From assembly GCA_964360635.1 (NCBI GenBank), contig CAYHXO010000006.1, positions 438 through 64,437 of the forward strand: a DNA stretch of 64,000 nucleotides. The letters are read 5' to 3'. Below are positions 18,515 to 35,464 of the stretch, piece by piece. The stretch's first letter is position 1. Every line of letters starts with the position of its first letter. Position numbers and translations under genes: made by a program. A model generated the notes under the pieces. It saw nothing but the letters and a program-made list of their open reading frames with translations, ran no database searches and was not told the DNA's origin. This DNA comes from an uncultured Candidatus Peribacteria bacterium. GTDB lineage: Bacteria; Patescibacteriota; Gracilibacteria; UBA1369; 2-02-FULL-48-14.

Positions 18515-18515
18515 T

Positions 18516-20733: not shown

Positions 20734-20796
20734 AAATATCAATAAAGTGCTGGAATTTTACAGGTAAAAGGCTTTTCTTGCAATCTGACAGAATAG

Positions 20797-21576
20797 CTAT
20801 TTGTAATCCGGCAAAAAAGTCCAAAAAGACTGATGGATATTTCTCAAAGATTCTGCAATGTGAGGCTCTTCAATAATAATTCCAACAATGTCTCGGTAAA
20901 TTGAAACTATAGCGACTTTGTCACCATAAATATTTATTTCGACAGGAATATGTACATTATTTAACATTTTCAAAACCCGATTTTGTTCTTTACGATGCTT
21001 ATATGCCATATCTGAAGATTCTGACTTATTTAAAATTCCAAAATATTTAATTTTCTTTTTTGCACGACGAATTGTGTAATCCCAAAGCCAATTATTAAAA
21101 TCTTTTTGATTTGATACCGGAAAAAAATATTGAAAATCACCCATGCCATATATATTTACTCCCGGAGTTTTCAATGTATCTTCATAAATTTCTTTCATAC
21201 CTTCAAGCCCCTGAAAAAAGTGAATTTTTGGCTGAGCAAGAAGAGGATTTCTAATCTTTTCAAGATCCGGCAATATGCTGAGGAGTTTTTGTTTTTGGTT
21301 TTCTATTTCTTCTTTTCGATGATCCAAAATTGAAAGAATCGACTTGGGAGGGCGCGAATTAAAATATCTAACACTTCCCTTTGTGTACTCTTGCATTATT
21401 CTTTTTTCAATCAATGTGCCTAGAATATTGTAAGAATGACTTCTTTTAAGTCCACTTTTTTTGGCTAGTATTGATGCCGGCTGAGCACCTAATTCGAGAC
21501 AAGCCAGATAAAGTTTTGCTTCGAGGTCGCTGAGACCGAACTCAGTTAAAATGGAATTAATATCGAAATCTGCCAT
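20797..21576 (-). CDS. TrmB-family transcriptional regulator (copy a), divergent from the Cys-rich paralog array
   Basis: N-terminal wHTH FGLSDLEAKLYLACLELGAQPASILAKKSGLKRSHSYNILGTLIEKRIM. Length is ~255 aa, as in TrmB-like proteins. Confidence 0.8.
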   Translation of the reverse strand: MADFDINSILTEFGLSDLEAKLYLACLELGAQPASILAKKSGLKRSHSYNILGTLIEKRIMQEYTKGSVRYFNSRPPKSILSILDHRKEEIENQKQKLLSILPDLEKIRNPLLAQPKIHFFQGLEGMKEIYEDTLKTPGVNIYGMGDFQYFFPVSNQKDFNNWLWDYTIRRAKKKIKYFGILNKSESSDMAYKHRKEQNRVLKMLNNVHIPVEINIYGDKVAIVSIYRDIVGIIIEEPHIAESLRNIHQSFWTFLPDYK

Positions 21577-21716: not shown

Positions 21717-21875
21717 ATGCCCATTGTGAACTTTTCAATTCCAAAAAATCTTGATCTGCGAATTCAAGCAACAATTAAAGAAAAAGGCTTTGCTAGTAAG
21801 GCAGAATTTTTCCGTTACTGTGCTGTCCGCTATATTGACAGTGACAAAGATAGAAAGAATAATCTAGCAGGATGA
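21717..21875 (+). CDS. Small ribbon-helix-helix (CopG/Arc-like) protein, 52 aa; below the ORF-track cutoff
   Basis: Hand translation gives MPIVNFSIPKNLDLRIQATIKEKGFASKAEFFRYCAVRYIDSDKDRKNNLAG. The beta-strand (VNFSIP), helix, then GF-SKAEFFRY-helix arrangement is the RHH pattern. The ORF ends 13 nt before paralog 1. Confidence 0.55.
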   Translation: MPIVNFSIPKNLDLRIQATIKEKGFASKAEFFRYCAVRYIDSDKDRKNNLAG

Positions 21876-21888
21876 TCTCCCCAAACGG

Positions 21889-23478
21889 ATGATAAAAAAC
21901 TGCAAGAATTGCTCGGCTGAGTTTGAAATAACAAATGATGATTTGGATTTTTATGGGAAAATAAAAGTTCCTGAACCGACATTTTGTCCAGATTGTCGAT
22001 TACAGAGGAGATTGATGATGAGAAATGAAAAAAATCTTTATAAAAGGAGCTGTGATTTTTGTAAAAAATCCATAATTGCTTTTTTTGATTCAGATGTTAA
22101 CTTTCCGGTTTATTGTACTGATTGTTGGTGGAGTGATAAATGGGACCCTAGATCTTATGGACAAGATTTTAATTTCAATAGGCCATTTTTTGAGCAATTT
22201 AAAGAGTTAATAAATAAGGTTCCAAAAGCTAACCTACTTCAGCTTAATAATGAGAATTCTGAATATAATTCACTACTGGCATTTTCAAAAAATACATATA
22301 TGAGTCCAGGCTCATATTTATGTGAAGGATGTATTTATGTTAGAAAGAGTCAAAGCTGTAAAGACTGCATTAACAGCAATATAATTAATAAATGTGAACT
22401 TGTATCTAACTCTGTTAATTGTGATTCCTGTTATAGTTCGGACTATCTTTTAAACTGCCGTTCATGTTCATTCTCCTCATACTTGGATGATTGTTCAAAT
22501 ATGCAAAATTCGTTTATGTGCAGTGGAGTAAGAAATAAAAATTATTGTTTCAAAAATAAAGAATTAACTAAAGAAGAATTCGAGAAAATTCTTGCAGAAT
22601 ATAAAATGAAAAACCATGAAGATATATTTTCTGAATTTATGGGGTTCTCTTCATCCCTACCAAAACGTGCAGTAGTTCAATTTAATTGTGAAAATTCGAC
22701 TGGTGATTACTTGTATAACTCAAAAAATGCAGTCGAATGTTTTGATTCTTTTGATATTTTAGATTCAAAATATTTGGTTGAATGTTCGGGAATAAAAGAC
22801 TCAATGGATCTGTGCATGCATGATAAAGAAATTGAACTTTGCTATGAAATGAGTTCTGGTGGCGAAAAAAATTATATGTCTAAATTTTGCTATTGTTCAA
22901 TTGCCGCACCTTTTGGGGAATATTTATATTCATGTTTTTATTTATCAAATAGTTTTGGTTGCGATGGTTTTCATTCAAAAAATGAATACTGTATTTTGAA
23001 TAAACAGTATTCAAAAGAAGGGTACGAAGTTCTAGTCGCACGGGTTATTGAATATATGAAAACGGCTGGTGAATATGGTGAGTTTTTTCCTAATTTCATT
23101 TCAACATTTGCATATAATGAAAGTGCGGCTCAAGATTATTTCCCTCTAAGTAAAGAAGAAATCATATCGAAGGGATATGTATGGAAAGAAGCCGAGACTG
23201 CCAAAGCTCCAAGTGAAATCGCAGCCTTGGATTGTATAGTATGCAAAAAACAGTATCGAGTTATTAAACAAGAACAGGCACTTTACGACAAACTTAATTT
23301 AAAAATTCCAAAAAGATGCAGTGAATGTAGATATAAAGAACTATTAAAATGGAAAAATCCTCGAAAACTATGGACTCGTGCATGTGCAAAATGTGGAAAT
23401 AAAATCCACAGCAGCTATTCCCCGGAGCGAGCTGAGATTGTATACTGTGAAGCGTGCTATTTGGCTTCTGTATACTAA
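21889..23478 (+). CDS. Cys-rich multi-zinc-ribbon repeat protein, paralog 1 of 6 (unknown family)
   Basis: 529 aa with 38 Cys by my count. There are four terminal CxxC...CxxC ribbons and a duplicated Cys-ladder core. Shared family blocks include WWSDKWD, YCILNKQYSKE, GEYGEFFP and VYCEACYL. Confidence 0.85.
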   Translation: MIKNCKNCSAEFEITNDDLDFYGKIKVPEPTFCPDCRLQRRLMMRNEKNLYKRSCDFCKKSIIAFFDSDVNFPVYCTDCWWSDKWDPRSYGQDFNFNRPFFEQFKELINKVPKANLLQLNNENSEYNSLLAFSKNTYMSPGSYLCEGCIYVRKSQSCKDCINSNIINKCELVSNSVNCDSCYSSDYLLNCRSCSFSSYLDDCSNMQNSFMCSGVRNKNYCFKNKELTKEEFEKILAEYKMKNHEDIFSEFMGFSSSLPKRAVVQFNCENSTGDYLYNSKNAVECFDSFDILDSKYLVECSGIKDSMDLCMHDKEIELCYEMSSGGEKNYMSKFCYCSIAAPFGEYLYSCFYLSNSFGCDGFHSKNEYCILNKQYSKEGYEVLVARVIEYMKTAGEYGEFFPNFISTFAYNESAAQDYFPLSKEEIISKGYVWKEAETAKAPSEIAALDCIVCKKQYRVIKQEQALYDKLNLKIPKRCSECRYKELLKWKNPRKLWTRACAKCGNKIHSSYSPERAEIVYCEACYLASVY

Positions 23479-25101
23479 ATGTTAAATTGTAAAAAATGCG
23501 GACAAAACTTTGAACTTGAAGCCGAAGATTTTGAATTTTTAAAAAAGTTTGATGTTCCGGCGCCGACTCACTGCCCGGATTGCAGGAATCAAAGACGATT
23601 GGTTTTTCGAAATGACAGGAATTTTTACAAACGCGAATGTGATATGTGCAAGAAGATAATTATTTCGATTTATTCCGTGGACAGGCCATTCCCCGTCTAC
23701 TGCAAAGATTGTTTTTTAAGTGACAAATTCAATCCGCTCGATTACGGGAAAGATTTCAATTTCGACAAACCTTTTTTCGAACAATTTGAAGATATGAGAT
23801 CTAAAGTTCCTCGAATAGCGATTTATCAGACGCTTTGCGAAAACTCCGATTACATAGTGCATAGCGGAAAAAGTAAGAATTGTTACATGGGCAGTTCAAT
23901 GCGAGGTTGTGAAGATGTTTACTACTCGGATTTCGCACAAGTCAGCAGGGATTCACTCGATCTCTACATGTGCTCGCATATGGAAGAGTGCTATTTCTGC
24001 ACCGATTCAGACCAATGTTATCATTCATCGTATCTGGAGAATTGCCTAAGTTTAAATTTTTCCTATTTATGTTTTGACTGTCGCGCTTCCAATAATTTGA
24101 TCGGTTGCGTTGGACTTAGAAGAAAAGAATTTATGATTTTAAATCAGCCGTCGAATCAAAAAGATTTTGAGGAGACTTTAAAAAAATTAAATAATGATGC
24201 TGAGTTTAAGTGTGACTTTTTAGAAAAATTTGCGAAATTGAGACTCGAGATTCCGGTTAAATATTTTTGGGAGAAAAATTCTGAAAATTCTACCGGAAAT
24301 TATGTAGTTAATTCAAAAAATGCACGCGATTGTTATAATGTTTGGAATGTTGAAGACGGCAAATATATTTATGACAGTATGGACATGAAAGATTGCCTTG
24401 ATTCCACACGAATTGCAGGAGGAGAGATGCTTTATGAAACAAATGGTGGAATCGATCTGACTTTTAGCAAATTTTCCAATCTTTGTTACCAATGCAGTAA
24501 CATGGAATATTGCGACAATTCACAAAGTTCACATGATTGTTTCGGGTGCATGAGTTTAAAATCAAATCGTTTTTGCATTTTGAACAAACAATATAGCGAG
24601 GAAGAATGGAGAAAGCTCGCTACGCTCGTTATAGAACATATGAAAAAAACCGGTGAATATGGCGAATATTTCCCGGCGGGAATTACAGTTTTTGGATACA
24701 ATGAAACAAAGGCTTTTGACCACTTCCCACTTTCAAAAATAGAGGCAATTGCAAAAGGTTTTAAATGGAAGGATGTAGATTTGCGTCAATATTTACCGCA
24801 AACATATAAACTTACAAATGAAATAAATGATGATGTTTTAAATGAAATTTTGGCATGTTCATTATGCTCTAAAAACTACAAAATCATTCCGCAAGAATTA
24901 AAGTTCTATCGAAAAATGGGCCTTCCCATACCTGTTAAATGCTTTGAATGTAGGCATAAGGAGCGTCTGTCATATGAAAATCCACGAAAACTTTGGGATA
25001 GAAATTGTATGAAGTGTGGTGTCACGATTCAAACTACATATGCACCCGAATGTAGTGAAAAGGTGTATTGTGAGAAATGTTATTTAGCTGAAGTTCAATG
25101 A
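23479..25101 (+). CDS. Cys-rich multi-zinc-ribbon repeat protein, paralog 2 of 6
   Basis: 540 aa, homologous end to end with paralog 1. The ATG directly abuts the paralog 1 TAA. Confidence 0.85.
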   Translation: MLNCKKCGQNFELEAEDFEFLKKFDVPAPTHCPDCRNQRRLVFRNDRNFYKRECDMCKKIIISIYSVDRPFPVYCKDCFLSDKFNPLDYGKDFNFDKPFFEQFEDMRSKVPRIAIYQTLCENSDYIVHSGKSKNCYMGSSMRGCEDVYYSDFAQVSRDSLDLYMCSHMEECYFCTDSDQCYHSSYLENCLSLNFSYLCFDCRASNNLIGCVGLRRKEFMILNQPSNQKDFEETLKKLNNDAEFKCDFLEKFAKLRLEIPVKYFWEKNSENSTGNYVVNSKNARDCYNVWNVEDGKYIYDSMDMKDCLDSTRIAGGEMLYETNGGIDLTFSKFSNLCYQCSNMEYCDNSQSSHDCFGCMSLKSNRFCILNKQYSEEEWRKLATLVIEHMKKTGEYGEYFPAGITVFGYNETKAFDHFPLSKIEAIAKGFKWKDVDLRQYLPQTYKLTNEINDDVLNEILACSLCSKNYKIIPQELKFYRKMGLPIPVKCFECRHKERLSYENPRKLWDRNCMKCGVTIQTTYAPECSEKVYCEKCYLAEVQ

Positions 25102-26693
25102 TTAAAACTTGTAAAAATTGCTCGCAAAACTTTGAAATCAGGGAAGAAGATGTGGCAATTTATCAAAAATTGGATGTTCCTTATCCGAATTATTGCCCTA
25201 ACTGTAGAGCACAAAGAAGAACTTCATTTAGGAATGACTGGAATGTTTATAATAGAAAATGTGATTTGTGTAAAAAAAATATTGTGAGTGTTTATTCAAC
25301 GGATAAAAACGTAAAAGTATATTGTCAGGAATGTTATTGGAGTGACAAATGGGATGGCGGTCAATTTGCTAAAGATTTCGACTTTAACAGATCGTTTTTT
25401 GATCAAATGAAAGAATTAATTTCATCAGTTCCGCTCATTAATCTAACAATGATGAATTGTATAAACTGCGAATACAATACAAATGCGGTTAACTCAAAAG
25501 ATTGTTATTTGTCATCAAGATTGGGTGATAGCGAAGGAATTTTATATACATATTTGCCTGTGAAATCTTTGAATTGCGTTGACTGTTTCAACATAAATAC
25601 TTGCCAATATTGTTATGAATGTGTGGACTGTTGGAACTGTTATAACTCTATTTTTTGCGTTAGATGTAAAAGCACGAGTGATTCTTCTTTTTGTTTTGAG
25701 TGTATTAGTGTGAAAAATTGCTTTGGTTGTGTTGGGTTAAGAAACGTTGAATATTACTTTTTTAATCAAAAATGTACAAAAGAAGAATATGAAGAAAAAA
25801 TTAGAAATGTTGATATTTCCACACATGAAAAGCTCTTGGAAATGAAGAGAATATTTATTAAAAAGGTCAGCAAATATCCACACAGAGCTTCAGTTATTTT
25901 AAATTCAGAAAATGTCCTGGGTGACTATATTGCAGATTCAAAAAACGTATATAATTCATTCGACATCGAAAAAAGTGAAGATGTTGTTAACTCATGGGGT
26001 GTTGAATTTGCAAAGGATGTTTATGACGGATGTTTTATTTATATTGGCGAAAATGTTTACGATACAATTGGAAATTTTGATAGCCAGAATATAAGATTTT
26101 CTGCCTTCCCATATAATTGTCACGATAGTTACTACTTATTTTCTTGTTTCAATAACACCGGCAATTGCTTCGGTTGCGTTTCATTGAAACAAAAACAGTA
26201 CTGTATTTTAAATAAACAGTACACAAAAGAAGAGTATGAAGCTTTGCTTCCGCGAATTATTGAACATATGAAAAAAACCAGTGAATATGGTGAATTTTTC
26301 CCTGTTTCAATATCTCCATTTGCATATAATGAGACGGTTGCTTATGAATTTTTTCCAATGACAAAAGATGAAGTTTTAGCCTGTGGTTTAAAATGGAAAG
26401 ATTTTGAGCGAAAAAACTCATCCGGTCTAAGTGAAGATATTGTATCATGCATCCAATGTGAAAGAATTTTTAAATTAATTCCAAAAGAATTAGCCTTTTA
26501 TCGAGAGAAAAAGCTTCCAAATCCTAAAAAATGTCATATTTGCAGACATGCCGAAAGGTTAAATCAGAGAAATCCAAGACACCTTTGGACTCGAAATTGT
26601 GCTAAGTGCAAAGTCGAAATATCTACCGGCTATTCACCGGAAAGGTCGGAAACGGTATATTGTGAATCGTGTTACTTATCTGAAGTCTACTAA
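25098..26693 (+). CDS. Cys-rich multi-zinc-ribbon repeat protein, paralog 3 of 6
   Basis: 531 aa with the same blocks. It has an ATGA overlap with paralog 2. Confidence 0.85.
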   Translation: MIKTCKNCSQNFEIREEDVAIYQKLDVPYPNYCPNCRAQRRTSFRNDWNVYNRKCDLCKKNIVSVYSTDKNVKVYCQECYWSDKWDGGQFAKDFDFNRSFFDQMKELISSVPLINLTMMNCINCEYNTNAVNSKDCYLSSRLGDSEGILYTYLPVKSLNCVDCFNINTCQYCYECVDCWNCYNSIFCVRCKSTSDSSFCFECISVKNCFGCVGLRNVEYYFFNQKCTKEEYEEKIRNVDISTHEKLLEMKRIFIKKVSKYPHRASVILNSENVLGDYIADSKNVYNSFDIEKSEDVVNSWGVEFAKDVYDGCFIYIGENVYDTIGNFDSQNIRFSAFPYNCHDSYYLFSCFNNTGNCFGCVSLKQKQYCILNKQYTKEEYEALLPRIIEHMKKTSEYGEFFPVSISPFAYNETVAYEFFPMTKDEVLACGLKWKDFERKNSSGLSEDIVSCIQCERIFKLIPKELAFYREKKLPNPKKCHICRHAERLNQRNPRHLWTRNCAKCKVEISTGYSPERSETVYCESCYLSEVY

Positions 26694-28345
26694 TGCCTGA
26701 TATTAAACAGAACTGCCGAACTTGCTCAAAAGAATTCGTTGTGAATGAATGGGAACAAGCACATTTGCAAAAAATGGGTGGTTTTCCACTGCCAACTTTG
26801 TGTATAGATCACAGACATCAAAGAAGATTTGCCTATAGAAATGAGAGGAAATTATATAAAGATAAATGTGATTTTAGCGGAAAAGATATTATTTCAATTT
26901 ATTCGCCGGATAAAAATTTGAAAGTTTATTCCCAAGAAATTTGGTGGAGTGACAAATGGGATGGACGCGATTACGGAAGAGATTTTGACTTTAGTAGGCC
27001 ATTTTTTGATCAATTTCAAGAGCTAAGATTGTCGACTCCAAGAATGTCTCTTTTGAATTCAAATGGTGAAAATAGCGAATATTGCAATCTAACAACTGAT
27101 AATAAAAACTGCTATTTAGTTTTTGGGGGAGATTTTAATCAAGATGCTCTTTATTCAATATTTTGTTTTTATTCAAGAGATGTTGCGGATCTTTATTGGG
27201 TGAATAAATCGGAACTTATTTATGACTCAATTGATTGTTCGAATTGCTACAATATTAAGCATGCACAAAATACTTATAACTGTCGTGATGGGGCATTTTT
27301 ATTTGATTGTCGAAACTGTGAATATTGTATTGGATGTGTTGGTTTACGCGGTAAAAAATATCATATTTTCAACAAAGCATATTCGCCGGAAGATTATGCA
27401 AAAAAAATGCATGAATTAAGGTTAGATACTTGGAGCGGAGTACAAAAATTTAAAGTGGAGTTTAATAAATTTAAATTGAATTTTCCAATGCTTTTTGCAA
27501 GTATTGTGAATTGTGAAAACTGCAGTGGTGATAAAATTAAAGATGCTAAAAATTGTGAGAACTGCTTTGATATTTATGGCCCTGTTGAAGACTGTAAAGA
27601 TGTATTCTTAGGAGGCTGGAATTTAAAAGATGCTCTTAGCTCTAGTCACATTGGTCATAAATCAGAAATAGCATATGAATCAATTGGGATTCCCGGAGTT
27701 CACACAACTGCTTTTTCGTCATTTGTATGGTTTGGAAGCAATGTTTACTATTCAGATACAGTTGCTTATTGTAATAATATTTTTGGTTGTTCGAATATGA
27801 ATAAAGCCGAATATTGCATTTTGAACAAACAATACAGTAAAGAAGATTATGAAAGTTTACGTGCAAGAATTGTGGAGCATATGAAAAAAACCGGTGAATG
27901 GGGTGAGTTTATGCCAATCAAAAATTCTCTTTTTGCATACAATGAAACCGTTGCTCAAGATTTCTTTCCTAAAAGCAAGGATGAAGCTTTTTCCGAAGGC
28001 ATTAAATGGCTTGATGAAGAAGTTCGTGAGATAAAACCTCAAGATATTCCAGACTCAATTCACGATGCAAAAGATGATATTTTACAAGGAACATTCATAT
28101 GTGAAAAAACCGGAAGACCCTATCGGATTGTTCCTGCGGAATTAAAATTATATCGACAAATGGGAATCCCAATCCCTCATTTTGCTCCTGAAACTCGGAA
28201 TGAAATGCGCATTCAAGCTAGAAATCCTCATCATACCTGGTCAAGAAATTGCACAAAGTGTGGAATGAAGATTGAAACTAGTTATGCTCCTAATCGGCCA
28301 GAAAATGTATACTGTGAGCCTTGTTATTTGGCTGAGGTTTACTGA
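26693..28345 (+). CDS. Cys-rich multi-zinc-ribbon repeat protein, paralog 4 of 6 (degenerate N-terminal and third ribbons)
   Basis: 550 aa with a TAATG overlap with paralog 3. Ribbon 2 reads CDFSGK...VYSQEI instead of CDxCKK...VYCxxC. Confidence 0.85.
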   Translation: MPDIKQNCRTCSKEFVVNEWEQAHLQKMGGFPLPTLCIDHRHQRRFAYRNERKLYKDKCDFSGKDIISIYSPDKNLKVYSQEIWWSDKWDGRDYGRDFDFSRPFFDQFQELRLSTPRMSLLNSNGENSEYCNLTTDNKNCYLVFGGDFNQDALYSIFCFYSRDVADLYWVNKSELIYDSIDCSNCYNIKHAQNTYNCRDGAFLFDCRNCEYCIGCVGLRGKKYHIFNKAYSPEDYAKKMHELRLDTWSGVQKFKVEFNKFKLNFPMLFASIVNCENCSGDKIKDAKNCENCFDIYGPVEDCKDVFLGGWNLKDALSSSHIGHKSEIAYESIGIPGVHTTAFSSFVWFGSNVYYSDTVAYCNNIFGCSNMNKAEYCILNKQYSKEDYESLRARIVEHMKKTGEWGEFMPIKNSLFAYNETVAQDFFPKSKDEAFSEGIKWLDEEVREIKPQDIPDSIHDAKDDILQGTFICEKTGRPYRIVPAELKLYRQMGIPIPHFAPETRNEMRIQARNPHHTWSRNCTKCGMKIETSYAPNRPENVYCEPCYLAEVY

Positions 28346-29097
28346 GCCACGAAGGAAGTTGCGCCGAGCCAAGAAAGATCGAAAATTGCCTTTTGAGTGC
28401 GTGCATAAACAGCCGATTCGATTAAAACGCCGGTTAGTTCATCTGGATTGAGAGACATTATTGCAACAAAATTATCGTAAATTGAAATTTGGTTTTCAAA
28501 GGCAAATTCATTTGGATTCACGAAAAGAATTTCTACAAGTTCTTCCGGATATTTTTTTGGATAAAAGTTTTCAACAAAGTATCTGGCCTCCTTTGTTGAA
28601 GGGGTAAGTAGCCTGACTTTTATACCTTTCCTAACCAATTTCTGAAGATATCCTGGTAAATAATCTGGGAGTAAATTTCCGAGTGCTTCTAAATTTGTAT
28701 ATCCTAAAACATCTGATTTTGCTTCGAGAGTTTGTTCAAAAATAGTTTTAATTCCATCAATTCCCTCGTAAGAACGGATGATTGGTTTGAAGGCACTTGT
28801 ATTTGTTAGTGAAATTAATTCAGGTAAAAGTGATTTGGCTTTTTCAAATTTTTCTTCAATTTGATTCACGAGAACTTGTGGAGGTTCTGCAACAAAAAAT
28901 TTAACATTACCTTTCAAATTGGTCGTTATAAGTCCCTTATTTTTTAATGTATCAAGAATGTAATAACAGTTTACACGAGCTGTATTAGACTTTCTTGCAA
29001 TGGTACTGGCAAAAGATCCACCTAATTCCAATACAGTTATGTAAACTTGAGCTTCTTCTTTTGAAAGACCGAATTGTTCAAGCTGATTTACGAGCAT
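28339..29097 (-). CDS. TrmB-family transcriptional regulator (copy b), inside the array
   Basis: FGLSKEEAQVYITVLELGGSFASTIARKSNTARVNCYYILDTLKNKGLI. The gene is tail-to-tail with paralog 4 (7-nt overlap) and divergent from paralog 5. Confidence 0.8.
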   Translation of the reverse strand: MLVNQLEQFGLSKEEAQVYITVLELGGSFASTIARKSNTARVNCYYILDTLKNKGLITTNLKGNVKFFVAEPPQVLVNQIEEKFEKAKSLLPELISLTNTSAFKPIIRSYEGIDGIKTIFEQTLEAKSDVLGYTNLEALGNLLPDYLPGYLQKLVRKGIKVRLLTPSTKEARYFVENFYPKKYPEELVEILFVNPNEFAFENQISIYDNFVAIMSLNPDELTGVLIESAVYARTQKAIFDLSWLGATSFVAQ

Positions 29098-29193: not shown

Positions 29194-30846
29194 ATGGAAA
29201 TCAATAAAACATGTACATCGTGCGGCAAAAGTTTTGTAGTTAACGAACTAGACCAAAAATTTTATGAAAAAATGGTGGTTCCAATGCCAACATTATGTCC
29301 TGATGAAAGGGCAAAACGTAGGTTAGCATTCAGAAATGAAAAACACCTTTATCACAGGAAATGTGATTTAAGCGGGAAAAGTATTATTTCAAATTATTCC
29401 ATAGATAAAGTTAACAAAGTTTACGATCAGAAAGAGTGGTGGAGTGATAAATGGAGTGCAATGGATTATGGGCGTGATTTTGATTTTAATCGTTCATTTT
29501 TCGAACAATATTCTGAGCTTCAAAAAGAAGTGCCTCGCTTGAATTTGCTAAGTATAAATAATGAAAATAGTGATTACACAAATTGTGTTTCAAATTTGAA
29601 AAATTGTTACTTACTTTTTTCGTCCGATTTTAGTCAAGATTGTTATTACGGCGATTGGGTACAAAATTCAAAGAATTGCGTGGATAATTATTTAATAGTT
29701 AGAAGTGAATTGGCATACGAATGTTTCTATTCACAGAGCATTTACAGAGGTATTTATATCTTTAATTCATCAAATTGTACTGATAGCGCCTTTTTATATG
29801 ACTGTCGCGGCTGCAATGATTGTTTCATGTCATACGGCTTAAGAAATAAAAAATATTGCATCGAGAATAAGGAATATTCAAAAGAAGAGTATGAGAAATT
29901 GATGAAAGAAATTAAGATTAGTTCTAATGCGAATTTTTCAAAATTAAAGCAGAAGTTCTTTGAAATTATCAAAAATCATCCTCGACTTTACATGCAAAAA
30001 ATGGGGAGAGTTGAATCTTCAACGGGTGATCTTTTTATGGATAGTGAGAATTGTCTTGAATCATTTGAAGTTGTGAAAGGAAAAGACTGCAAGTTTGTAC
30101 AATCCGGATTTGAAATTAAGGATATTTATGATTCTTCTTATGTAAATGGCGAGCTGGGTTATGAAAACTGCGAATGTTTTCCAATGCCATATAATTCCGC
30201 CTTTAATGTAAACACATATACCGGCCAAAATCTTTTCTATACAGATAGTTGTATGAGCAATTGCTCAGATTGTTTTGGATGTATAAGTCTTCGCGCAAAT
30301 AAGTACTGTATTTTAAATAAACAATACACAAAAGAGGAATATGAAAATATGAAAGCTCGGATTATTGAGTATATGAAAAAAACCGGTGAATGGGGGGAGT
30401 TCTTCCCTATCGAACTTTCACCTTTTGGATACAATGAAACAAACGCTCAAGAGTTTTTCCCAATCACAAAAGAAGATGCTTTGAGTGAAAAATATAAGTG
30501 GAAGGAGGAAGATGAAAATTCGAGTTATTCAGGGCCTTATGTAAATATTCCGGATGATATTAAAGATGTGGATTCTGAAATTACGAAGCAGATTTTGAAA
30601 TGCGAAATTAGTGGAAAACTTTATAAAATAATTCCTCAGGAGTTAGAATGTTATAAAACTATGGGCATTCCAATTCCAAGGTGTTCGCCCGAACAAAGAT
30701 GGAAAGATAGATTTTCAAAGCAAAATCCTAGAACACTTTGGGATAGAAAATGTGAGAATTGTTCAAAAGGAATTAAAAGCACTTATTCTCCGGATAGACC
30801 TGAAAAAGTTTATTGTGAGGTGTGCTATTTAAAAATAGTCTATTAA
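29194..30846 (+). CDS. Cys-rich multi-zinc-ribbon repeat protein, paralog 5 of 6
   Basis: 550 aa with the same family blocks. The N-terminal ribbons are degenerate (CPDE, CDLSGK). Confidence 0.85.
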   Translation: MEINKTCTSCGKSFVVNELDQKFYEKMVVPMPTLCPDERAKRRLAFRNEKHLYHRKCDLSGKSIISNYSIDKVNKVYDQKEWWSDKWSAMDYGRDFDFNRSFFEQYSELQKEVPRLNLLSINNENSDYTNCVSNLKNCYLLFSSDFSQDCYYGDWVQNSKNCVDNYLIVRSELAYECFYSQSIYRGIYIFNSSNCTDSAFLYDCRGCNDCFMSYGLRNKKYCIENKEYSKEEYEKLMKEIKISSNANFSKLKQKFFEIIKNHPRLYMQKMGRVESSTGDLFMDSENCLESFEVVKGKDCKFVQSGFEIKDIYDSSYVNGELGYENCECFPMPYNSAFNVNTYTGQNLFYTDSCMSNCSDCFGCISLRANKYCILNKQYTKEEYENMKARIIEYMKKTGEWGEFFPIELSPFGYNETNAQEFFPITKEDALSEKYKWKEEDENSSYSGPYVNIPDDIKDVDSEITKQILKCEISGKLYKIIPQELECYKTMGIPIPRCSPEQRWKDRFSKQNPRTLWDRKCENCSKGIKSTYSPDRPEKVYCEVCYLKIVY

Positions 30847-32513
30847 TGACTGTGATTACTAAAACATGTCGGGTTAGTGGAAAAGAATTCATTGTCACAG
30901 ATGAAGATCAGCAGTTTTATGAAAAAATGGGAGTGCCGTTGCCAACTTTATGTCCCGAAGAACGAATGCGACGTAGATTGGCTTTTCGAAATGAAAGGAA
31001 TCTTTATCATAGAAAATGTGATTTAAGCGGAAAAGAGTTGATTTCAAATTTTTCACCTGATAAACCTAATAAAGTTTATGACCAAAAAGACTGGTGGAGT
31101 GATAAATGGGATGCACTTTCGTATGGAATGGACTTTGATTTTACCCGGCCTTTTTTTGACCAATTTGAGGAACTATTAAAAAAAGTTCCACTCCCACATG
31201 TCGTTGGCTCAATTGATATTGAGGAAAGCAATTGTAGATATACCAATTATGCTGGTGATAACAAAAATTGTTATTTAATTTTTGACTCAGATTTTAATGA
31301 AGATTGTCAGTATGGTGAAGTAATTAAACATTCAAAATCTTGCTTGGATTCTTCCTATTTGAAAAGCTGTGAATTGATGTATGGATGCCTAGATTGTCAT
31401 AGTTGTTATAATTTAAAATACTCACAAGATTGTACAAATAGTTTTGATTCTTTTTTTCTAAAAAATTGCATTTCGTGTAAGAATTGTTTTGGATGTGTTG
31501 GTCTTGTACAAAAAGAATACTACATTTTCAATAAGCCATTTAGCAGAGAGGAATATCAGAATTTTCTTAAAAAGTTCGTAGCAGGCAAAAGGAGTGCAGT
31601 ATTAGATATGCAGAAAAAATTTGAAGAATTCTCAACTTGTTTCCCAGTTAAATATTTCCATGGGATACAAATCGAAAATTCCGATGGTGATTATTTAAGC
31701 AATGTAAAAGATGTCCATAATTGTTTTGATGTAGGAAATTCTAGAGATCTGCATTATTGCGACTCACTATACACCGCAAATGACTGCATGGATGTTTCTT
31801 CATTTGGAGAGAAAATTGAACTCGTTTATGAATCAGGAACAGTTGGCATTAATTGTACAAACATTAAATTCTGCCATGGAATTGTAAACAATTGTTCCGA
31901 TATAAATTATTCAATGTACTGTAGATCATCACAAAATCTTTTCGGATGTGTGGGAATAAAAAGGGGTAATTATACTATTCTTAACAAGAAATATACGAAA
32001 GAAGAGTATGAATTTTTATTACCACGAGTTATAGAACATATGAAGAAAACAGGCGAATTGGGCGAGTATTTCCCAATGAAATTATCTCCGTATTGTTATA
32101 ATGAATGTATGTCACAGGAATATTTTCCAATTACTAAAGAAGAAACTTTAAAGTTGGGTTTAAAGTGGTTTGAACCTGAAACTCAAAGCCATTATCAAGG
32201 TCAAAAAATAGTGACTCCAGAAAATATCATAGATGTGGATGAATCGATTTTAAAACAAATTCTTACATGTAATAACTGTACAAAAAATTATAAAATAAAT
32301 AAAATGGAGCTGGATTTTTATAAAAATATGGGAATTCCTGTGCCGCAAATTTGCTCACATTGCAGGTATAAAGTGAGAATGAAACAAAAAAATCCTAGAC
32401 AATTATTAGAAAGGAACTGTAGCAATTGTTCAAAAGATATCCAAACTACATACTCAAATGAACGAGTTGAGAAAGTTTATTGTGAAGAGTGTTATTTAAA
32501 GCATGTTTACTAA
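30846..32513 (+). CDS. Cys-rich multi-zinc-ribbon repeat protein, paralog 6 of 6
   Basis: The start was moved to the ATG at 30846 (MTVITKTCRVSGKEF). This aligns with the other N-termini and gives the same TAATG junction seen between paralogs 3 and 4. Length is ~555 aa. Confidence 0.8.
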   Translation: MTVITKTCRVSGKEFIVTDEDQQFYEKMGVPLPTLCPEERMRRRLAFRNERNLYHRKCDLSGKELISNFSPDKPNKVYDQKDWWSDKWDALSYGMDFDFTRPFFDQFEELLKKVPLPHVVGSIDIEESNCRYTNYAGDNKNCYLIFDSDFNEDCQYGEVIKHSKSCLDSSYLKSCELMYGCLDCHSCYNLKYSQDCTNSFDSFFLKNCISCKNCFGCVGLVQKEYYIFNKPFSREEYQNFLKKFVAGKRSAVLDMQKKFEEFSTCFPVKYFHGIQIENSDGDYLSNVKDVHNCFDVGNSRDLHYCDSLYTANDCMDVSSFGEKIELVYESGTVGINCTNIKFCHGIVNNCSDINYSMYCRSSQNLFGCVGIKRGNYTILNKKYTKEEYEFLLPRVIEHMKKTGELGEYFPMKLSPYCYNECMSQEYFPITKEETLKLGLKWFEPETQSHYQGQKIVTPENIIDVDESILKQILTCNNCTKNYKINKMELDFYKNMGIPVPQICSHCRYKVRMKQKNPRQLLERNCSNCSKDIQTTYSNERVEKVYCEECYLKHVY

Positions 32514-33220: not shown

Positions 33221-35464
33221 ATGGATTTTTTACATGTAATAGTCCCACAGGGAACGGCTGAAAATCCGAAAAAAGAAGGACTTTTCCTTCAGTTTTTGCA
33301 GAATCTACATAAAACGGCACATCATAAACATTTGTCGTTTGAACTTTTTGGTTATAATCAATACACATATTTTTTTATTGGTTGCGAGCCGGATATTACA
33401 AAACTTGTAGAGGGTTTGATTTATTCAAGCTACCCGGATGCAGAAATTAGACCTGTAAAAGACTATACAACTGTCTATGATCCCAAAAAACATGTTTTGC
33501 TGGGAACTAGCGCAAAGTTTGCAATGAGCGATATTTATCCCTTCAAAGCTTACGATGAATTTGAGGTGGATTCCCTATCTTCGATTTTTTCAGTAATTTC
33601 GAAATTGGGAAGAAATGATCATGCTTGGGTACAAATTTTGACGGTACCGATTGATGAAGATTGGAAGTATCATTTTTTGAGAAAATTCAGAATGCGACTT
33701 AATAGATTTTTGCGAAGATTCCGTTTGAAGAATTATGTTCGAATGAAAGAAAAATCAGAATATTACAAAGAAGAAGAGGCACTTTTTATTCATAAATCAG
33801 AGCATGAACCATTTAAAGTTCAAATTCGATTTGGAGCAGTGTCTGACAAAGAAGATGAAGCACAGAAAAATTTATTAGCGCTTTCGAAGGCATTTTTTCA
33901 GTTTAATAAAACAGATGCAAATCATTTTGAATTGGAAAAAGTTAAAAAGGGCGCTGCATTTTTGCGTGAATATCAAAGTAGACATATTGATAACGGCGCG
34001 ATTGTTAGCGATCATGAATTGGCTACATTTTTCCATATTCCGAATGCAGATCACGTTCCACACGTTGTGCATGTGATGGCAAAAAAACATGAGCCACCAA
34101 AAGATTTACCAACCGGCGGCCCGGATGTTTGTATGTTTGGAATGACAAATTACCATAATAATTTTCAGCACTTTGGAATTAAACGTGATGATAGACGAAG
34201 GCATCTTTATCTTGTTGGAAAGAGCGGAACCGGTAAATCAAAAATGCTTGAGCTTTTGATTCAGGCAGATATAAATGCCGGGAAAGGTATTGGTGTTTTA
34301 GACCCGCACGGTGATCTTGTGGATAACATTTTGCGAATGATTCCTGAATCAAGAATGAAGGATGTAATTTTGTTCGATCCTTCTGATACTGAGTTCCCTA
34401 TCGCATTTAATCCGCTCGAAAAAGTTGATGAAAAATTCAAGATGCAAATCACAATTGGTTTCATTGATATTTTCAAAAAACTATTCGGCGGAAACTGGTC
34501 TGATCGTTTGGAACACGTTTTGCGATATACAACTTTAGCGCTTTTAGATTCCCCGAACACAACGGTACTTTCAATTTTGAAAATGCTTTCTGATAAAAAT
34601 TACCGTCAGAAAATTGTGGCAAGAATTGAAGATTCAGTGGTGAAAAATTTCTGGGTGAATGAATTTGCTGGATGGAGCGAGAAGTTTGATAGCGAGGCGA
34701 TTACTCCACTTTTGAATAAAGTTGGACAGTTGGTTTCAACAAATATGATTCGAAATATTATCGGTCAGCCGGTGAATACTTTCAATATTCGAGACATAAT
34801 GGACAATAAAAAAATCCTCTTAATGAAAGTCTCAAAAGGGCTTCTTGGAGAGGAAAATTCACAGTTAGTTGGAGCAATGATTATCACGAAAATTTATCAA
34901 GCAGCAATGGCTAGAGCAGACATGCGAGAAGACGATAGAAGTGATTTTTATTTCTATGTGGATGAGTTCCAAAACTTTGCAACAAATACATTTTCTGAGA
35001 TTTTATCTGAAGCGCGAAAATACAGATTGAACATGACTATTGCTCACCAATATATTGGACAGCTTTCAGACCTCGTTAGAAAAACAGTTTTTGGTAACGT
35101 TGGTACAATTGTAAACTTTCGTGTTGGTGCGGAAGATGCGGTGATTTTGGCAGAAGAATACACTCCGATTTTCAATGTTCGAGATATTATTAATCTTGGA
35201 GTTCGAGAATTTTATACAAAAATGTCCGTACAAGGTGAACTTTCAGAAGCTTTTTCAGGCCGAACTTTAGATATCAAATATAACCCTGTTGATAAGACTC
35301 GTGAAATTATTGATATTTCTCGTGCTGCTTATTGCCACCCTCGTGAAGAGGTTGAAGAAATGTTGAAAAAATGGGATGAAGGAAAAATTGAAGAACCCGG
35401 TGCTATTGCTCCAAAGAACGATGTTATTGAAGAAGCCGCGGAGTTTGAGATGCCTTTGATTTAA
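33221..35464 (+). CDS. TraD/VirD4-like (FtsK/HerA-superfamily) P-loop NTPase, no TM segment
   Basis: Walker A is LVGKSGTGKSK and Walker B is FYFYVDEFQNFAT. EARKYRLNMTIAHQYIGQL resembles coupling-protein C-terminal motifs. The ~300-aa N-terminal domain is unrecognised. Confidence 0.7.
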   Translation: MDFLHVIVPQGTAENPKKEGLFLQFLQNLHKTAHHKHLSFELFGYNQYTYFFIGCEPDITKLVEGLIYSSYPDAEIRPVKDYTTVYDPKKHVLLGTSAKFAMSDIYPFKAYDEFEVDSLSSIFSVISKLGRNDHAWVQILTVPIDEDWKYHFLRKFRMRLNRFLRRFRLKNYVRMKEKSEYYKEEEALFIHKSEHEPFKVQIRFGAVSDKEDEAQKNLLALSKAFFQFNKTDANHFELEKVKKGAAFLREYQSRHIDNGAIVSDHELATFFHIPNADHVPHVVHVMAKKHEPPKDLPTGGPDVCMFGMTNYHNNFQHFGIKRDDRRRHLYLVGKSGTGKSKMLELLIQADINAGKGIGVLDPHGDLVDNILRMIPESRMKDVILFDPSDTEFPIAFNPLEKVDEKFKMQITIGFIDIFKKLFGGNWSDRLEHVLRYTTLALLDSPNTTVLSILKMLSDKNYRQKIVARIEDSVVKNFWVNEFAGWSEKFDSEAITPLLNKVGQLVSTNMIRNIIGQPVNTFNIRDIMDNKKILLMKVSKGLLGEENSQLVGAMIITKIYQAAMARADMREDDRSDFYFYVDEFQNFATNTFSEILSEARKYRLNMTIAHQYIGQLSDLVRKTVFGNVGTIVNFRVGAEDAVILAEEYTPIFNVRDIINLGVREFYTKMSVQGELSEAFSGRTLDIKYNPVDKTREIIDISRAAYCHPREEVEEMLKKWDEGKIEEPGAIAPKNDVIEEAAEFEMPLI

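What the first reader, a model, noticed from the sequence alone, without database searches (positions are those of the whole stretch)
21889..23478. Nested internal duplications: the same double zinc-ribbon module at both termini and a twice-repeated Cys-ladder core
This is seen in every paralog; coordinates are given for copy 1.

The first ~85 aa and the last ~80 aa are recognisably the same module. The N-terminal module reads C..C..F(E/V)(I/V)....(F/L)(Y).K..VP.PT.CP.CR.QRRL..RNE..LY.R.CD.C.K.I.S.Y......VYC..C. The C-terminal module reads C..C.K.Y(R/K)(I/V)I..E..(F/L)Y.K(M)G(I/L)P(I/V)P..C..CR..ER.....NPR.LW.R.C..C...I...Y(S/A)P(E/D)...E.VYCE.CY. In copy 2, compare CKKCGQNFELEAEDFEFLKKFDVPAPTHCPDCRNQRRLVFRNDRNFYKRECDMCKK with CSLCSKNYKIIPQELKFYRKMGLPIPVKCFECRHKERLSYENPRKLWDRNCMKCGV.

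The centre is also duplicated. Two stretches carry short, quasi-periodic C/S/N/D-rich segments, for example SQSCKDCINSNIINKCELVSNSVNCDSCYSSDYLLNCRSCSF. Each stretch ends in the same cap. In copy 3 the caps are NCFGCVGLRNVEYYFFNQKCTKEEYEEKI and NCFGCVSLKQKQYCILNKQYTKEEYEALL.

The periodic Cys spacing is reminiscent of Cys-ladder beta-solenoids such as beetle antifreeze proteins. That analogy is purely structural speculation.

The architecture reads as ribbon pair, [solenoid-like + cap] x2, helical GEYGEFFP region, then ribbon pair. I do not recognise it.
Basis: seen in the sequence. Interest (0 to 1): 0.7.

Follow-up and report, generated by a model that had tools for sequence, protein, structure and literature searches.

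The report
Zinc-clamped double Cys-ladder solenoid family
Six neighbouring genes encode an undescribed but very widespread protein of tiny "CPR" bacteria, built from two copies of a 12-residue cysteine-lined coil held between two copies of a double zinc-finger module; what it does is unknown.

Summary
In all six tandem paralogs (21889-32513, + strand) the first ~85 and last ~85 residues are homologous (BLASTP E 2e-8 to 2e-18; profile E 8e-32). The two central halves are also homologous (E 5e-6 to 2e-15; profile E 4e-35).

A deep-alignment AlphaFold2 model is confident (pLDDT 94.8, pTM 0.92). Coevolution independently shows a 12-residues-per-turn solenoid in both halves: 31 of the top 60 couplings in core 1 lie at i,i+12, against 1.1 expected.

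Each terminal module has two four-Cys sites with treble-clef geometry (Pfam zf_Tbcl plus zf_Tbcl_2), not classic zinc ribbons. The ladder cysteines behave as small interior packing residues, not obligate ligands or disulfides.

The core has no Pfam, NCBIfam, PDB or literature match. The family is large (about 2,300 clusters at 50% identity). It was found only in Patescibacteria/CPR, and a pattern-seeded scan of IMG/VR viral contigs confirmed none. It lies in arrays of up to nine ancient, roughly 42%-identical copies.

Arrays recur next to TrmB-like regulators and a soluble VirD4-like ATPase. Function is unproven. My best inference is a rigid scaffold with a conserved docking face and a variable recognition face, possibly working with that ATPase.

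The parts
21889..23478 (+). Copy 1 (529 aa), the reference copy. All four four-Cys sites are intact.
   Evidence: ORF; family search; AF2 model.
21889..22164 (+). Copy 1 N-terminal double zinc-finger module (residues 1-92). Site Zn1 = C5, C8, C33, C36 (zf_Tbcl-like). Site Zn2 = C55, C58, C76, C79 (CxxC-x17-CxxC, zf_Tbcl_2-like).
   Evidence: Pfam PF13451 scores 24.1 bits at residues 4-41. DSSP shows a hairpin knuckle plus a helix N-terminus. Cys quartets co-vary: 8-36, 58-79, 58-76. Homologous to the C module at E 8e-32.
22165..22239 (+). Copy 1 conserved linker and helix (residues 93-117, DFNFNRPFFEQFKEL..VP). It packs on helix 385-393.
   Evidence: Lowest entropy of the protein. DCA pairs 94-386, 96-386, 94-389 and 96-389.
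22240..22608 (+). Copy 1 solenoid 1 with cap and helices (residues 118-240). About 8 rungs of 12 residues, consensus C-x-x-C-x-x-(C/S)-x-x-(C/L)-x-(N/D). Cap: NCF.C.G..NK.Y.. N.. (S/T)KEEY.
   Evidence: 31 of the top 60 DCA pairs lie at separation 12, against 1.1 expected. Column composition. pLDDT 94-98.
22609..23043 (+). Copy 1 solenoid 2 with leading helix and cap (residues 241-385). Homologous to solenoid 1, with fewer ladder Cys and one or two indels between rungs.
   Evidence: hhalign E 4e-35 against core 1. 32 of the top 60 DCA pairs lie at separation 11-13, against 3.3 expected.
23044..23220 (+). Copy 1 unique middle region (residues 386-444). Long helix, then the conserved motifs GE(Y/W)GEFFP and YNE(T/S).AQ..FP, then a variable linker.
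   Evidence: No internal homolog. High conservation at G397, P401, Y409, N410, P419 and W432. 23 DCA pairs to the N module.
23221..23475 (+). Copy 1 C-terminal double zinc-finger module (residues 445-529). Site Zn3 = C449, C452, C477, C480. Site Zn4 = C499, C502, C520, C523. Basic, mean net charge +6.
   Evidence: PF23477 scores 21.2 bits at residues 492-525 and TIGR04272 matches weakly. Zn4 is kept in 98% of 491 sequences. Charge.
23479..25101 (+). Copy 2 (540 aa). All four sites intact. Its start abuts the stop codon of copy 1.
25098..26693 (+). Copy 3 (531 aa), the most Cys-rich copy (40 Cys). Its start overlaps the stop of copy 2 by 4 nt.
26693..28345 (+). Copy 4 (550 aa). Sites Zn2 and Zn3 have lost their cysteines. 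Its start overlaps the stop of copy 3 by 1 nt.
29194..30846 (+). Copy 5 (550 aa). Only site Zn4 is complete.
30846..32513 (+). Copy 6 (555 aa from the ATG at 30846; the mechanical ORF starts at GTG 30822). Sites Zn3 and Zn4 are complete.
20797..21576 (-). TrmB-family winged-helix protein (259 aa), divergent from copies 1-4.
   Evidence: PF01978, E 4.5e-8. TrmB-like genes lie within 500 bp of a family gene in 34 of 41 cases across 83 loci.
28339..29097 (-). Second TrmB-family protein (252 aa), divergent from copies 5-6.
   Evidence: PF01978, E 4.6e-13. PDB 3QPH TrmB, E 1.9e-6. Orthologs sit in the same position in L001 and L007.
33221..35464 (+). Soluble VirD4/TraD-like (type IV coupling protein-like) P-loop ATPase (747 aa) downstream of the array.
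   Evidence: PF02534 and PF10412; NCBIfam VirD4-like CD1115 family. Next to arrays in 23 of 52 long loci, and on the same strand in 21 of 22 close cases.

Best explanation
**Shown.** Each gene encodes a soluble, cytoplasmic, mildly acidic protein of about 540 aa with a pseudo-two-fold build.
- Two homologous beta-solenoids of about eight 12-residue turns form the centre. Their narrow interior is lined every third residue by Cys, Ser or Leu, and each ends in a conserved cap.
- Two homologous double zinc-finger modules form the ends. Each has two four-Cys sites of treble-clef geometry, and each docks on the conserved face of the other half's solenoid.
- One face of each solenoid (rung positions 2-6) is conserved and carries the docking contacts. 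The opposite face (positions 8, 9, 11, 12) is hypervariable.

**Inferred.** The zinc sites and the Cys ladder are structural. The protein is a rigid recognition scaffold. Its conserved chassis (N module, linker, cap 2, GEYGEFFP region, and the ever-present fourth zinc site) serves a common function or partner. The variable faces give each ancient paralog its own target.

**Inferred, weaker.** The arrays are switched by the adjacent TrmB-like regulators. They may work as adaptors or clients of the neighbouring 'orphan' VirD4-like coupling ATPase.
For: **Structure**
- Both internal duplications are highly significant.
- The AF2 model has pLDDT 94.8 and pTM 0.92.
- DCA on 469 sequences shows massive i,i+12 enrichment in both cores and none in the zinc modules.
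- Zinc quartets co-vary and are lost all-or-none. Retention is Zn4 98%, Zn1 87%, Zn3 59%, Zn2 53%.
- N-module contacts to core 2 (40-320, 24-304, 37-307) mirror C-module contacts to core 1 (485-174, 468-159, 485-162).
- There is no transmembrane segment or signal peptide.

**Packing role of the ladder Cys**
- Cys presence at different ladder positions is only weakly correlated.
- The i,i+6 pairs show size complementarity (C-L, S-C) rather than Cys-Cys pairing.

**Chassis and variable face**
- Mean entropy is 1.5-1.75 bits at rung positions 2-6 and 2.8-3.4 bits at positions 8, 9, 11 and 12.
- The docking couplings fall on positions 3, 5 and 6.

**Paralog behaviour**
- Copies within a locus have median 42% identity, and none exceeds 70%.
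- 202 of 212 copies have their nearest relative in another genome.
- Array content differs between genomes whose ATPase is 97% identical.
- Copies are still under purifying selection, dN/dS <= 0.09.

**Partners**
- TrmB-like genes and the ATPase are the only other gene families that recur around arrays.
- Close ATPase homologs (>=50% identity) are mostly array-adjacent.
- The literature reports thousands of Patescibacteria VirD4-like genes away from virB4 with no assigned role (PMC12102498).
Against: - No binding partner, ligand or activity has been observed. All functional statements are inference from anatomy and gene neighbourhood.
- The ATPase link is only partial. It is seen in 44% of long array loci, and distant ATPase homologs sit beside topA, a sigma-like gene and pilin-like genes instead. 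It could therefore be lineage synteny.
- The variable face could simply be unconstrained surface.
- I could not inspect model coordinates. Handedness, interfaces and surface features rest on DCA and DSSP strings only.
- Zinc binding itself is inferred from motifs and co-loss, not measured.
Confidence: 0.4

Rival explanations
1. Nucleic-acid-binding proteins. The basic treble-clef modules (especially the C-terminal one) bind DNA or RNA. The solenoids act as spacers or as an acidic counter-surface. The neighbouring VirD4-like ATPase is the DNA translocase they serve, for example in DNA uptake or processing.
For: - The C module has mean charge +6 and the N module +2.4.
- The modules carry invariant Arg clusters: R37, R40, R41, R45, R481, R497.
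- Treble-clef fingers often bind nucleic acids (general knowledge).
- VirD4/TraD proteins are DNA-coupling ATPases.
- Neighbours include HTH proteins.
Against: - The whole protein is acidic, with pI about 6.
- Conserved arginines co-vary with acidic residues of the solenoid (R40-E320, 31-320). They therefore look like intramolecular salt bridges.
- Three of the four zinc sites are dispensable in many members.
Confidence: 0.18
2. A conflict or defence module. The arrays are repertoires of sensors or decoys that recognise invader or host proteins through their variable faces, with the P-loop ATPase as the effector or motor.
For: - Array content turns over between close genomes.
- The family evolves 6-10 times faster at the amino-acid level than flanking genes.
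- The solenoids have a variable face.
- Toxin-antitoxin and defence-type genes lie nearby in several loci: MazF in the window; ParE, SLFN/AlbA, PIN and AbiEii in L004 and L006.
- The ATPase weakly matches a PADLOC 'mads8' model.
Against: - The family has no PADLOC hit.
- The paralogs are ancient and stable, with no recent duplications.
- Selection is purifying.
- The family appears near-universal across many CPR lineages rather than patchy.
- No effector domain such as a nuclease is present.
Confidence: 0.14
3. Subunits of a fixed hetero-oligomeric or filamentous structural assembly. Translationally coupled paralogs would co-assemble end to end or side by side.
For: - Start and stop codons overlap or abut between copies 1-2, 2-3, 3-4 and 5-6.
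- The paralog lineages are ancient and distinct.
- Solenoid ends are natural polymerisation surfaces (general knowledge).
Against: - Copy number per locus ranges from 1 to 9, and the set of paralogs differs even between close genomes.
- Both solenoid ends are capped by conserved cap structures.
Confidence: 0.12
4. Metal store, metal wire or redox protein. The roughly 22 ladder cysteines bind additional Zn, Fe-S or other metals inside the coil, or form reversible disulfides.
For: - Members carry a mean of 38 Cys per protein.
- CxxC motifs stack every 12 residues, and some rungs are CxxCxxCxxC (copy 3).
- A ferredoxin and a 2-oxoacid:ferredoxin oxidoreductase are encoded upstream.
Against: - Ladder positions freely exchange Cys, Ser, Leu and Asn. 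They show no all-or-none pattern, unlike the four bona fide zinc sites.
- No Cys-Cys coupling is seen at i,i+6.
- The oxidoreductase neighbourhood is not conserved in other loci.
Confidence: 0.07
5. Ice-binding or antifreeze protein, like the beetle Cys-ladder beta-helix.
For: - Both have a 12-residue coil with small inward residues every third position.
- The beetle protein 1EZG is the third-best, non-significant, PDB hit of the core profile (E 0.66).
Against: - The protein is cytoplasmic, with no signal peptide.
- It has no Thr-x-Thr ladder.
- It has no disulfide-type Cys coupling.
- The flat faces are occupied by zinc modules or are hypervariable.
- No homology is detectable.
Confidence: 0.01

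Closest known systems
Tenebrio molitor antifreeze protein (TmAFP, PDB 1EZG): 12-residue Cys-ladder beta-helix
   Same: Both have a 12-residue turn, a very narrow core filled by Cys, Ser or Ala-sized residues at every third position, and a regular stack of rungs.
   Different: - No detectable homology (E 0.66; no Pfam hit).
- TmAFP is secreted, its Cys form i,i+6 disulfides, and a TxT face binds ice.
- Here the protein is cytoplasmic, Cys is interchangeable with Ser or Leu and is not pair-coupled, and there are two solenoids plus zinc modules.
Left-handed beta-helix (hexapeptide-repeat) proteins: GlmU, LpxA/LpxD, gamma-carbonic anhydrase
   Same: These are the only class of PDB structures that Foldseek retrieves for the model (E 2e-4 to 2e-2). 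Both are regular beta-solenoids with short strands.
   Different: - TM-scores are only 0.08-0.2.
- Their turn is 18 residues, against 12 here.
- There is no hexapeptide Pfam match.
- Those proteins are trimeric enzymes with inter-subunit active sites.
Pfam PF13451 (zf_Tbcl) and PF23477 (zf_Tbcl_2) / TIGR04272 CxxC-x17-CxxC: small 'zinc-ribbon domain containing' proteins of bacteria and phages
   Same: Fingers 1 and 3 match zf_Tbcl, and fingers 2 and 4 match zf_Tbcl_2 and the CxxC-x17-CxxC pattern. The best viral structural hit is a phage 'putative zinc-ribbon domain protein' (E 5e-3).
   Different: - Scores are at or below the curated cut-offs.
- Those families are short stand-alone or repeated fingers of unknown function.
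- Here a fixed pair of different fingers is duplicated and clamps a solenoid pair.
LIM domains (CRP1/CRP2, muscle LIM protein)
   Same: Both have zinc fingers with four-Cys-type ligand sets and act as protein-interaction modules. The profile gives weak hits from the fourth finger to LIM chains (E 1.4e-3 to 2e-2; Pfam LIM E 0.04-0.06).
   Different: The hits fall below the family thresholds. The ligand spacing and inter-finger linker differ, and LIM is eukaryotic.
Pentapeptide-repeat proteins (MfpA, Qnr)
   Same: Both are cytoplasmic bacterial beta-solenoids with capped ends and an acidic solenoid surface, used as a rigid binding or mimicry scaffold (general knowledge).
   Different: Their turn is 20 residues with four faces and an A(D/N)LxX motif. 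No sequence or Pfam match is found, and they have no zinc modules.

Membership tests
Pfam PF13451 zf_Tbcl (probable treble clef domain) | Score at or above the gathering threshold (24 bits) for the family HMM. | tested here: inconclusive
   Copy 1 scores 24.1 bits and copy 5 scores 24.6 bits, just above the threshold. Copies 2, 4 and 6 score 17-18 bits. Copy 3 has no hit. The precomputed annotation marks PF13451 on many homologs.
Pfam PF13451 zf_Tbcl | Two CxxC pairs arranged as a beta-hairpin knuckle plus a helix N-terminus (treble clef). | tested here: met
   C5/C8 lie in hairpin E2-4/E11-13, and C33/C36 lie at the start of helix 34-42. The same holds for C449/C452 and C477/C480. The quartets co-vary.
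Pfam PF23477 zf_Tbcl_2 / NCBIfam TIGR04272 CxxC-x17-CxxC | Score at or above the curated cut-off (27 bits / 36 bits). | tested here: not met
   Scores are 14.5-21.2 bits for PF23477 and 14-17 bits for TIGR04272. The CxxC-x17-CxxC spacing itself is present (C499, C502 ... C520, C523).
Left-handed beta-helix / hexapeptide repeat (PF00132) | Hexapeptide motif with 18 residues per turn. | tested here: not met
   There is no Hexapep hit at E <= 10 on the cores. The coupling period is 12, not 18. Foldseek TM is <= 0.2.
Insect Cys-ladder antifreeze beta-helix (TmAFP type) | 12-residue repeat. | tested here: met
   31 of the top 60 couplings lie at separation 12 in core 1, and 15 of 60 in core 2.
Insect Cys-ladder antifreeze beta-helix (TmAFP type) | Obligate intra-coil disulfide pairs (Cys at i and i+6), a Thr-x-Thr ice-binding ladder, and secretion. 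| tested here: not met
   There is no Cys-Cys association at i,i+6; C-L and S-C pairs dominate. The column composition shows no TxT ladder. There is no signal peptide. Sequence similarity is not significant.
Type IV coupling protein (VirD4/TraD) substrates or adaptors | Physical recognition by the coupling ATPase. | not testable with these tools
   Only gene adjacency is available: 23 of 52 long loci, with 21 of 22 close cases on the same strand.
Known anti-phage defence systems (PADLOC-DB) | Match to a PADLOC protein model. | tested here: not met
   Copies 1 and 4 have no hit at E <= 0.01. Only the ATPase matches, weakly (mads8, 1e-10).

The most novel reading that the evidence does not exclude
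The arrays may encode a Patescibacteria-specific repertoire of variable-face solenoid adaptors. These adaptors would give the 'orphan' VirD4-like coupling ATPase its targets. Thousands of copies of that ATPase are kept away from any virB4 and have no assigned role.

On this reading, the array, the TrmB-like switch and the ATPase form a previously unrecognised ATP-driven recognition and translocation (or remodelling) system. Such a system could be central to the biology of these reduced, host-dependent bacteria.
Probability: 0.2. Interest if true: 0.85.

Novelty: new variant of a known kind. Interest (0 to 1): 0.66.

Why it matters
**Genome investment.** Patescibacteria/CPR make up a large share of bacterial diversity and have genomes of about 1 Mb. 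One locus can devote up to nine genes of about 1.6 kb to this family, and several genomes carry more than one array.

**Annotation gap.** The core has no domain-database entry, no solved relative, and no mention in the papers I could search.

**Structure.** It is a confident example of a 12-residue Cys-lined solenoid that is cytoplasmic, duplicated, and clamped by four zinc sites in a pseudo-symmetric arrangement. Its domain order (Zn-sol-sol-Zn) cannot arise from a simple tandem duplication.

**Biology.** The recurrent link to VirD4-like ATPases gives a concrete, testable lead. It bears on a question stated as open in the literature: what the many coupling-protein homologues of Patescibacteria do when they are not next to a type IV secretion system.

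Tried and rejected
- **Family libraries.** Pfam, NCBIfam and PADLOC scans of whole proteins, and Pfam scans of isolated core 1, core 2 and middle region up to E 10, found only the terminal fingers.
- **PDB by sequence.** The whole-family profile gave only weak LIM hits on finger 4. The core-1 profile gave nothing significant.
- **Foldseek.**
  - The first, shallower model gave no hit below E 1 in PDB and only finger hits in BFVD.
  - The better model gave only left-handed beta-helix proteins, at TM <= 0.2.
- **First DCA run.** It was dominated by gap artefacts and was discarded. I reran it on low-gap columns, excluding the gap state.
- **Two-class split.** I looked for a simple split of paralogs into full-zinc and degenerate types that always co-occur. 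None exists: the sites are lost in many combinations.
- **Other partners.** All-against-all clustering of ORFs from 84 loci found no recurrent partner beyond the TrmB-like genes and the ATPase. The other large cluster appears to be antisense shadow ORFs, which I inferred but did not check.
- **Positive selection.** dS is saturated and dN/dS <= 0.09, so there is no signal. My POR_a coordinates were misframed, and that row should be ignored.
- **Viral origin.** A pattern-seeded scan of IMG/VR confirmed no member.
- **Archaeal occurrence.** The single 'Micrarchaeota' contig has bacterial neighbours and is probably misbinned.
- **Fusions.** Only one GNAT fusion was found among the long members examined. 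That is too thin to use.
- **Literature.** Searches for the Pfam, InterPro and TIGR identifiers, DUF8128, and CPR cysteine-rich or zinc-ribbon paralogs found nothing on this family.
Full report
**What is at the coordinates**

The ORF 21889-23478 (+) encodes a 529-aa protein. Five paralogs of 531-555 aa follow on the same strand, at 23479-25101, 25098-26693, 26693-28345, 29194-30846 and 30846-32513. Pairwise identity is 39-47%.

Start and stop codons abut or overlap between copies 1-2, 2-3, 3-4 and 5-6. Each protein contains 27-40 cysteines. None has a hydrophobic segment that could be a signal peptide or membrane helix, and pI is 5.6-6.7.

**Are the internal duplications real?**

Yes. With single sequences, BLASTP aligns the N-terminal ~85 residues to the C-terminal ~85 residues in all six copies. 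E-values run from 2e-8 to 2e-18, over about 80 ungapped columns. The two central halves align at E 5e-6 to 2e-15.

Profile-profile comparison on slices of a 143-sequence family alignment gives 99.9% probability for both pairs. The terminal modules score E 8e-32 over 80 columns, and the core halves score E 4e-35 over 135 columns.

Within a terminal module the two fingers are different. Finger 1 matches finger 3 (E 8e-24) and finger 2 matches finger 4 (E 3e-17), but finger 1 versus finger 2 is not significant. The region 386-444 has no internal counterpart.

**Is the core a solenoid?**

I used two independent lines of evidence.

- **Structure prediction.**
  - AlphaFold2 with a 55-sequence alignment gave pTM 0.82 but only pLDDT 55-75 in the cores.
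  - With 143 more diverse sequences it gave mean pLDDT 94.8 and pTM 0.92, with 94-98 across both cores and short strands recurring with a 12-residue beat.
- **Coevolution.**
  - I harvested 491 non-redundant family members from the protein searches and from 84 fetched loci, and ran mean-field direct-coupling analysis.
  - In core 1, 31 of the 60 strongest couplings lie at sequence separation exactly 12, against 1.1 expected.
  - In core 2, 15 lie at 12 and 32 lie at 11-13, against 3.3 expected.
  - The zinc modules show no such peak.

Column composition shows Cys, Ser or Leu at every third position from residue 136 to 211, and a looser version from 267 to 358. It also shows alternating Lys/Glu ladders 12 residues apart (134/146/158/170 and 279/291/303/316).

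Foldseek against the PDB finds only left-handed beta-helix proteins, at E 2e-4 to 2e-2 and TM-scores of 0.08-0.2. The fold class is therefore recognised, but there is no real structural relative.

**The zinc modules**

Pfam places fingers 1 and 3 in PF13451 (zf_Tbcl), at or just below threshold. It places fingers 2 and 4 in PF23477 (zf_Tbcl_2) and the CxxC-x17-CxxC pattern, below threshold.

In the model each site pairs a beta-hairpin CxxC with a CxxC at a helix N-terminus. That is the treble-clef arrangement, not a zinc ribbon.

The ligand quartets are among the strongest couplings (58-79, 452-480, 58-76, 8-36). Across the family they are kept or lost as sets. All-four-ligand retention is 98% for site 4, 87% for site 1, 59% for site 3 and 53% for site 2, with bimodal counts. 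In the window, copies 1-3 keep all four sites, while copies 4-6 have lost one to three.

This behaviour is what real metal sites show. Metal binding itself was not measured.

**The ladder cysteines are different**

Their presence at different ladder positions is only weakly correlated (phi <= 0.5). The i,i+6 positions, which face each other across a 12-residue turn, show size complementarity (Cys-Leu, Ser-Cys) rather than Cys-Cys pairing.

I therefore read them as small apolar packing residues of a very narrow coil. I do not read them as obligate ligands or disulfides. The beetle-antifreeze analogy holds for geometry only.

**Overall arrangement (from couplings)**

- The N module contacts core 2 (40-320, 24-304, 37-307, 31-320), the middle region (51-411, 43-402, 39-420) and the post-module linker.
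- The linker 94-99 contacts helix 385-393.
- The C module contacts core 1 (485-174, 468-159, 485-162).
- After applying the duplication offsets, the C-module-to-core-1 pairs are the mirror images of the N-module-to-core-2 pairs.
- N-C pairs 38-492 and 48-478/479 are also mirror mates.
- Core 1 to core 2 pairs with roughly constant i+j (189-274, 177-286, 132-327) suggest antiparallel side-by-side solenoids.

So the protein appears pseudo-two-fold symmetric, with each zinc module docked on the other half's solenoid. The order Zn-sol-sol-Zn cannot come from one tandem duplication of a Zn-sol unit. I could not inspect coordinates, so this rests on coevolution alone.

**Conserved and variable surfaces**

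Rung positions 2-6 are conserved (mean entropy 1.5-1.75 bits in core 1). They carry the docking couplings at positions 3, 5 and 6. Positions 8, 9, 11 and 12 are highly variable (2.8-3.4 bits).

Together with the N module these form one junction according to the couplings.

**Distribution**

- One search returned more than 6,286 clusters at 90% identity. All are named 'hypothetical' or 'zinc-ribbon domain containing'.
- An exhaustive profile search of 1.84 billion representatives gave 2,291 clusters at E <= 1e-30. The best 150 are all 497-731 aa.
- A scan of GTDB species representatives found at least 563 loci. The best 80 are all Patescibacteria/CPR: Peribacteria/Peregrinibacteria, Gracilibacteria, Abawacabacteria, Paceibacterota and others.
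- The one 'Micrarchaeota' contig has bacterial neighbours and is probably misbinned.
- A pattern-seeded scan of IMG/VR viral contigs confirmed no member.
- The closest locus (75% identity) is from a Candidatus Peribacteria MAG, so the window is probably from that group.

**Arrays and neighbours**

- Among the 52 loci of at least 15 kb, 42 have two or more copies, up to nine.
- Copies within a locus have median 42% identity, and none exceeds 70%.
- 202 of 212 copies have their nearest relative in a different genome, so the paralogs are old and are not homogenised.
- Only two other gene families recur around the arrays.
  - TrmB-like winged-helix proteins lie within 500 bp of a family gene in 34 of 41 cases, mostly divergently oriented.
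  - A soluble VirD4/TraD-like ATPase occurs in 23 of the 52 long loci. It lies within 500 bp of a family gene in 22 of its 36 occurrences, and 21 of those 22 are on the same strand.
- From the ATPase side, homologs at 50% identity or more are mostly array-adjacent. More distant homologs sit beside topA, a sigma-70-region-4/HARE-HTH gene and pilin-like genes instead. The link is real but not obligatory.
- A 2025 survey counted 5,713 VirD4-like genes in 2,918 Patescibacteria genomes. Only 148 were near virB4, and the authors left their role open (PMC12102498).

**Evolutionary tempo**

I compared the window with the related locus L007.

| Gene | Amino-acid identity to L007 |
|---|---|
| ATPase | 97% |
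| POR subunits | 93-95% |
| Copies 1, 2 and 4 | 72-76% |
| Copies 3, 5 and 6 | no ortholog |

dN is 0.16-0.20 for the family copies, against 0.02-0.03 for the ATPase and the POR beta subunit. dN/dS stays at or below 0.09, and dS is saturated. The family therefore evolves fast and array content turns over, but under purifying selection.

**What it most likely is and does**

The structural reading is well supported. I put it at about 0.9: a cytoplasmic, zinc-clamped, pseudo-symmetric double 12-residue solenoid.

Function is inferred. The anatomy is a conserved chassis plus variable faces in many stable paralogs. That anatomy fits a family of rigid recognition scaffolds best. The neighbourhood points to control by TrmB-like regulators and to possible cooperation with the orphan coupling-type ATPase. 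I give the combined statement 0.4.

The rivals are nucleic-acid binding (0.18), a conflict or defence repertoire (0.14), a fixed hetero-oligomeric assembly (0.12), metal storage or redox (0.07), and antifreeze (0.01).

**Novelty**

The terminal fingers belong to known but uncharacterised finger families, and beta-solenoids are a known fold class. The core domain, the whole architecture and the gene-array system are not described in Pfam, NCBIfam, the PDB or the papers I could search. I rate it a new variant of a known kind, with a real chance of marking an unrecognised system.

Noticed in passing
window 21717-21875 (+): A 52-aa ORF (MPIVNFSIPKNLDLRIQATIKEKGFASKAEFFRYCAVRYIDSDKD...) lies in the divergent region between the first TrmB-like gene and copy 1. 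By eye it resembles a ribbon-helix-helix protein. Pfam gives no hit at E <= 10.
   Followed up: partly
window 32510-32848 (-) and 32841-33068 (-): A PemK/MazF toxin gene (Pfam E 7.6e-26) and an overlapping 75-aa upstream ORF, likely the antitoxin, are inserted between copy 6 and the ATPase. They are absent from the syntenic loci L001 and L007.
   Followed up: partly
window 26693-32513 (copies 4-6): Copies 4-6 have lost the cysteines of one to three zinc sites while keeping the rest of the fold signature. Family-wide, site 4 is almost never lost, and sites 2 and 3 are lost in about 40-47% of members.
   Followed up: yes
window 33221-35464 versus L007 19386-21626: The VirD4-like ATPase is 97% identical between two genomes whose family orthologs are only 72-76% identical and whose arrays differ in content. 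The ATPase has no transmembrane N-terminus, and its N-terminal ~320 aa are annotated DUF8128 in precomputed tables.
   Followed up: partly
L101 3300-10451; L115 4057-13216: More distant homologs of the ATPase (about 40% identity) sit in a different conserved neighbourhood: topoisomerase I, a sigma-70-region-4/HARE-HTH protein, the ATPase, then pilin-like (N_methyl) genes.
   Followed up: partly
L048 (contig DUGF01000091.1, labelled Micrarchaeota archaeon UBA10214): This is the only 'archaeal' locus carrying the family. Its neighbours are bacterial in type: an SLH domain, an RluA-type pseudouridine synthase and a dCache histidine kinase. The contig is probably misbinned.
   Followed up: yes
protein P0181 (731 aa): One family member carries an N-terminal GNAT acetyltransferase domain (E 3e-8). 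A separate GNAT gene lies about 5 kb from the array in L002. This may be a real fusion or a gene-calling artefact.
   Followed up: no
L021, L023, L073 (whole loci): In some genomes the unit 'TrmB-like gene (-) plus one to four family genes (+)' is itself repeated three or four times in a row. This suggests that regulator and array duplicate together.
   Followed up: no
window 15837-18791 (+): A 2-oxoacid:ferredoxin oxidoreductase (alpha/gamma fusion and beta subunit) and a 2Fe-2S ferredoxin lie upstream, syntenic with L001 and L007. A lipoprotein-like gene (18788-19465, -) and a nucleotidyltransferase with a hexapeptide beta-helix (19471-20742, -) follow.
   Followed up: partly
window 4578-4652 (+): tRNA-Arg (CCT) is the only RNA gene found in the window by ARAGORN and Rfam.
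   Followed up: yes
literature, PMC4736985: The Peribacteria genome paper reports an unusually high proteome cysteine content. It lists only large extracellular Cys-rich proteins (Cys count >= 56). This roughly 38-Cys cytoplasmic family, present in Ca. Peribacter riflensis as P0054, is not in that list.
   Followed up: yes
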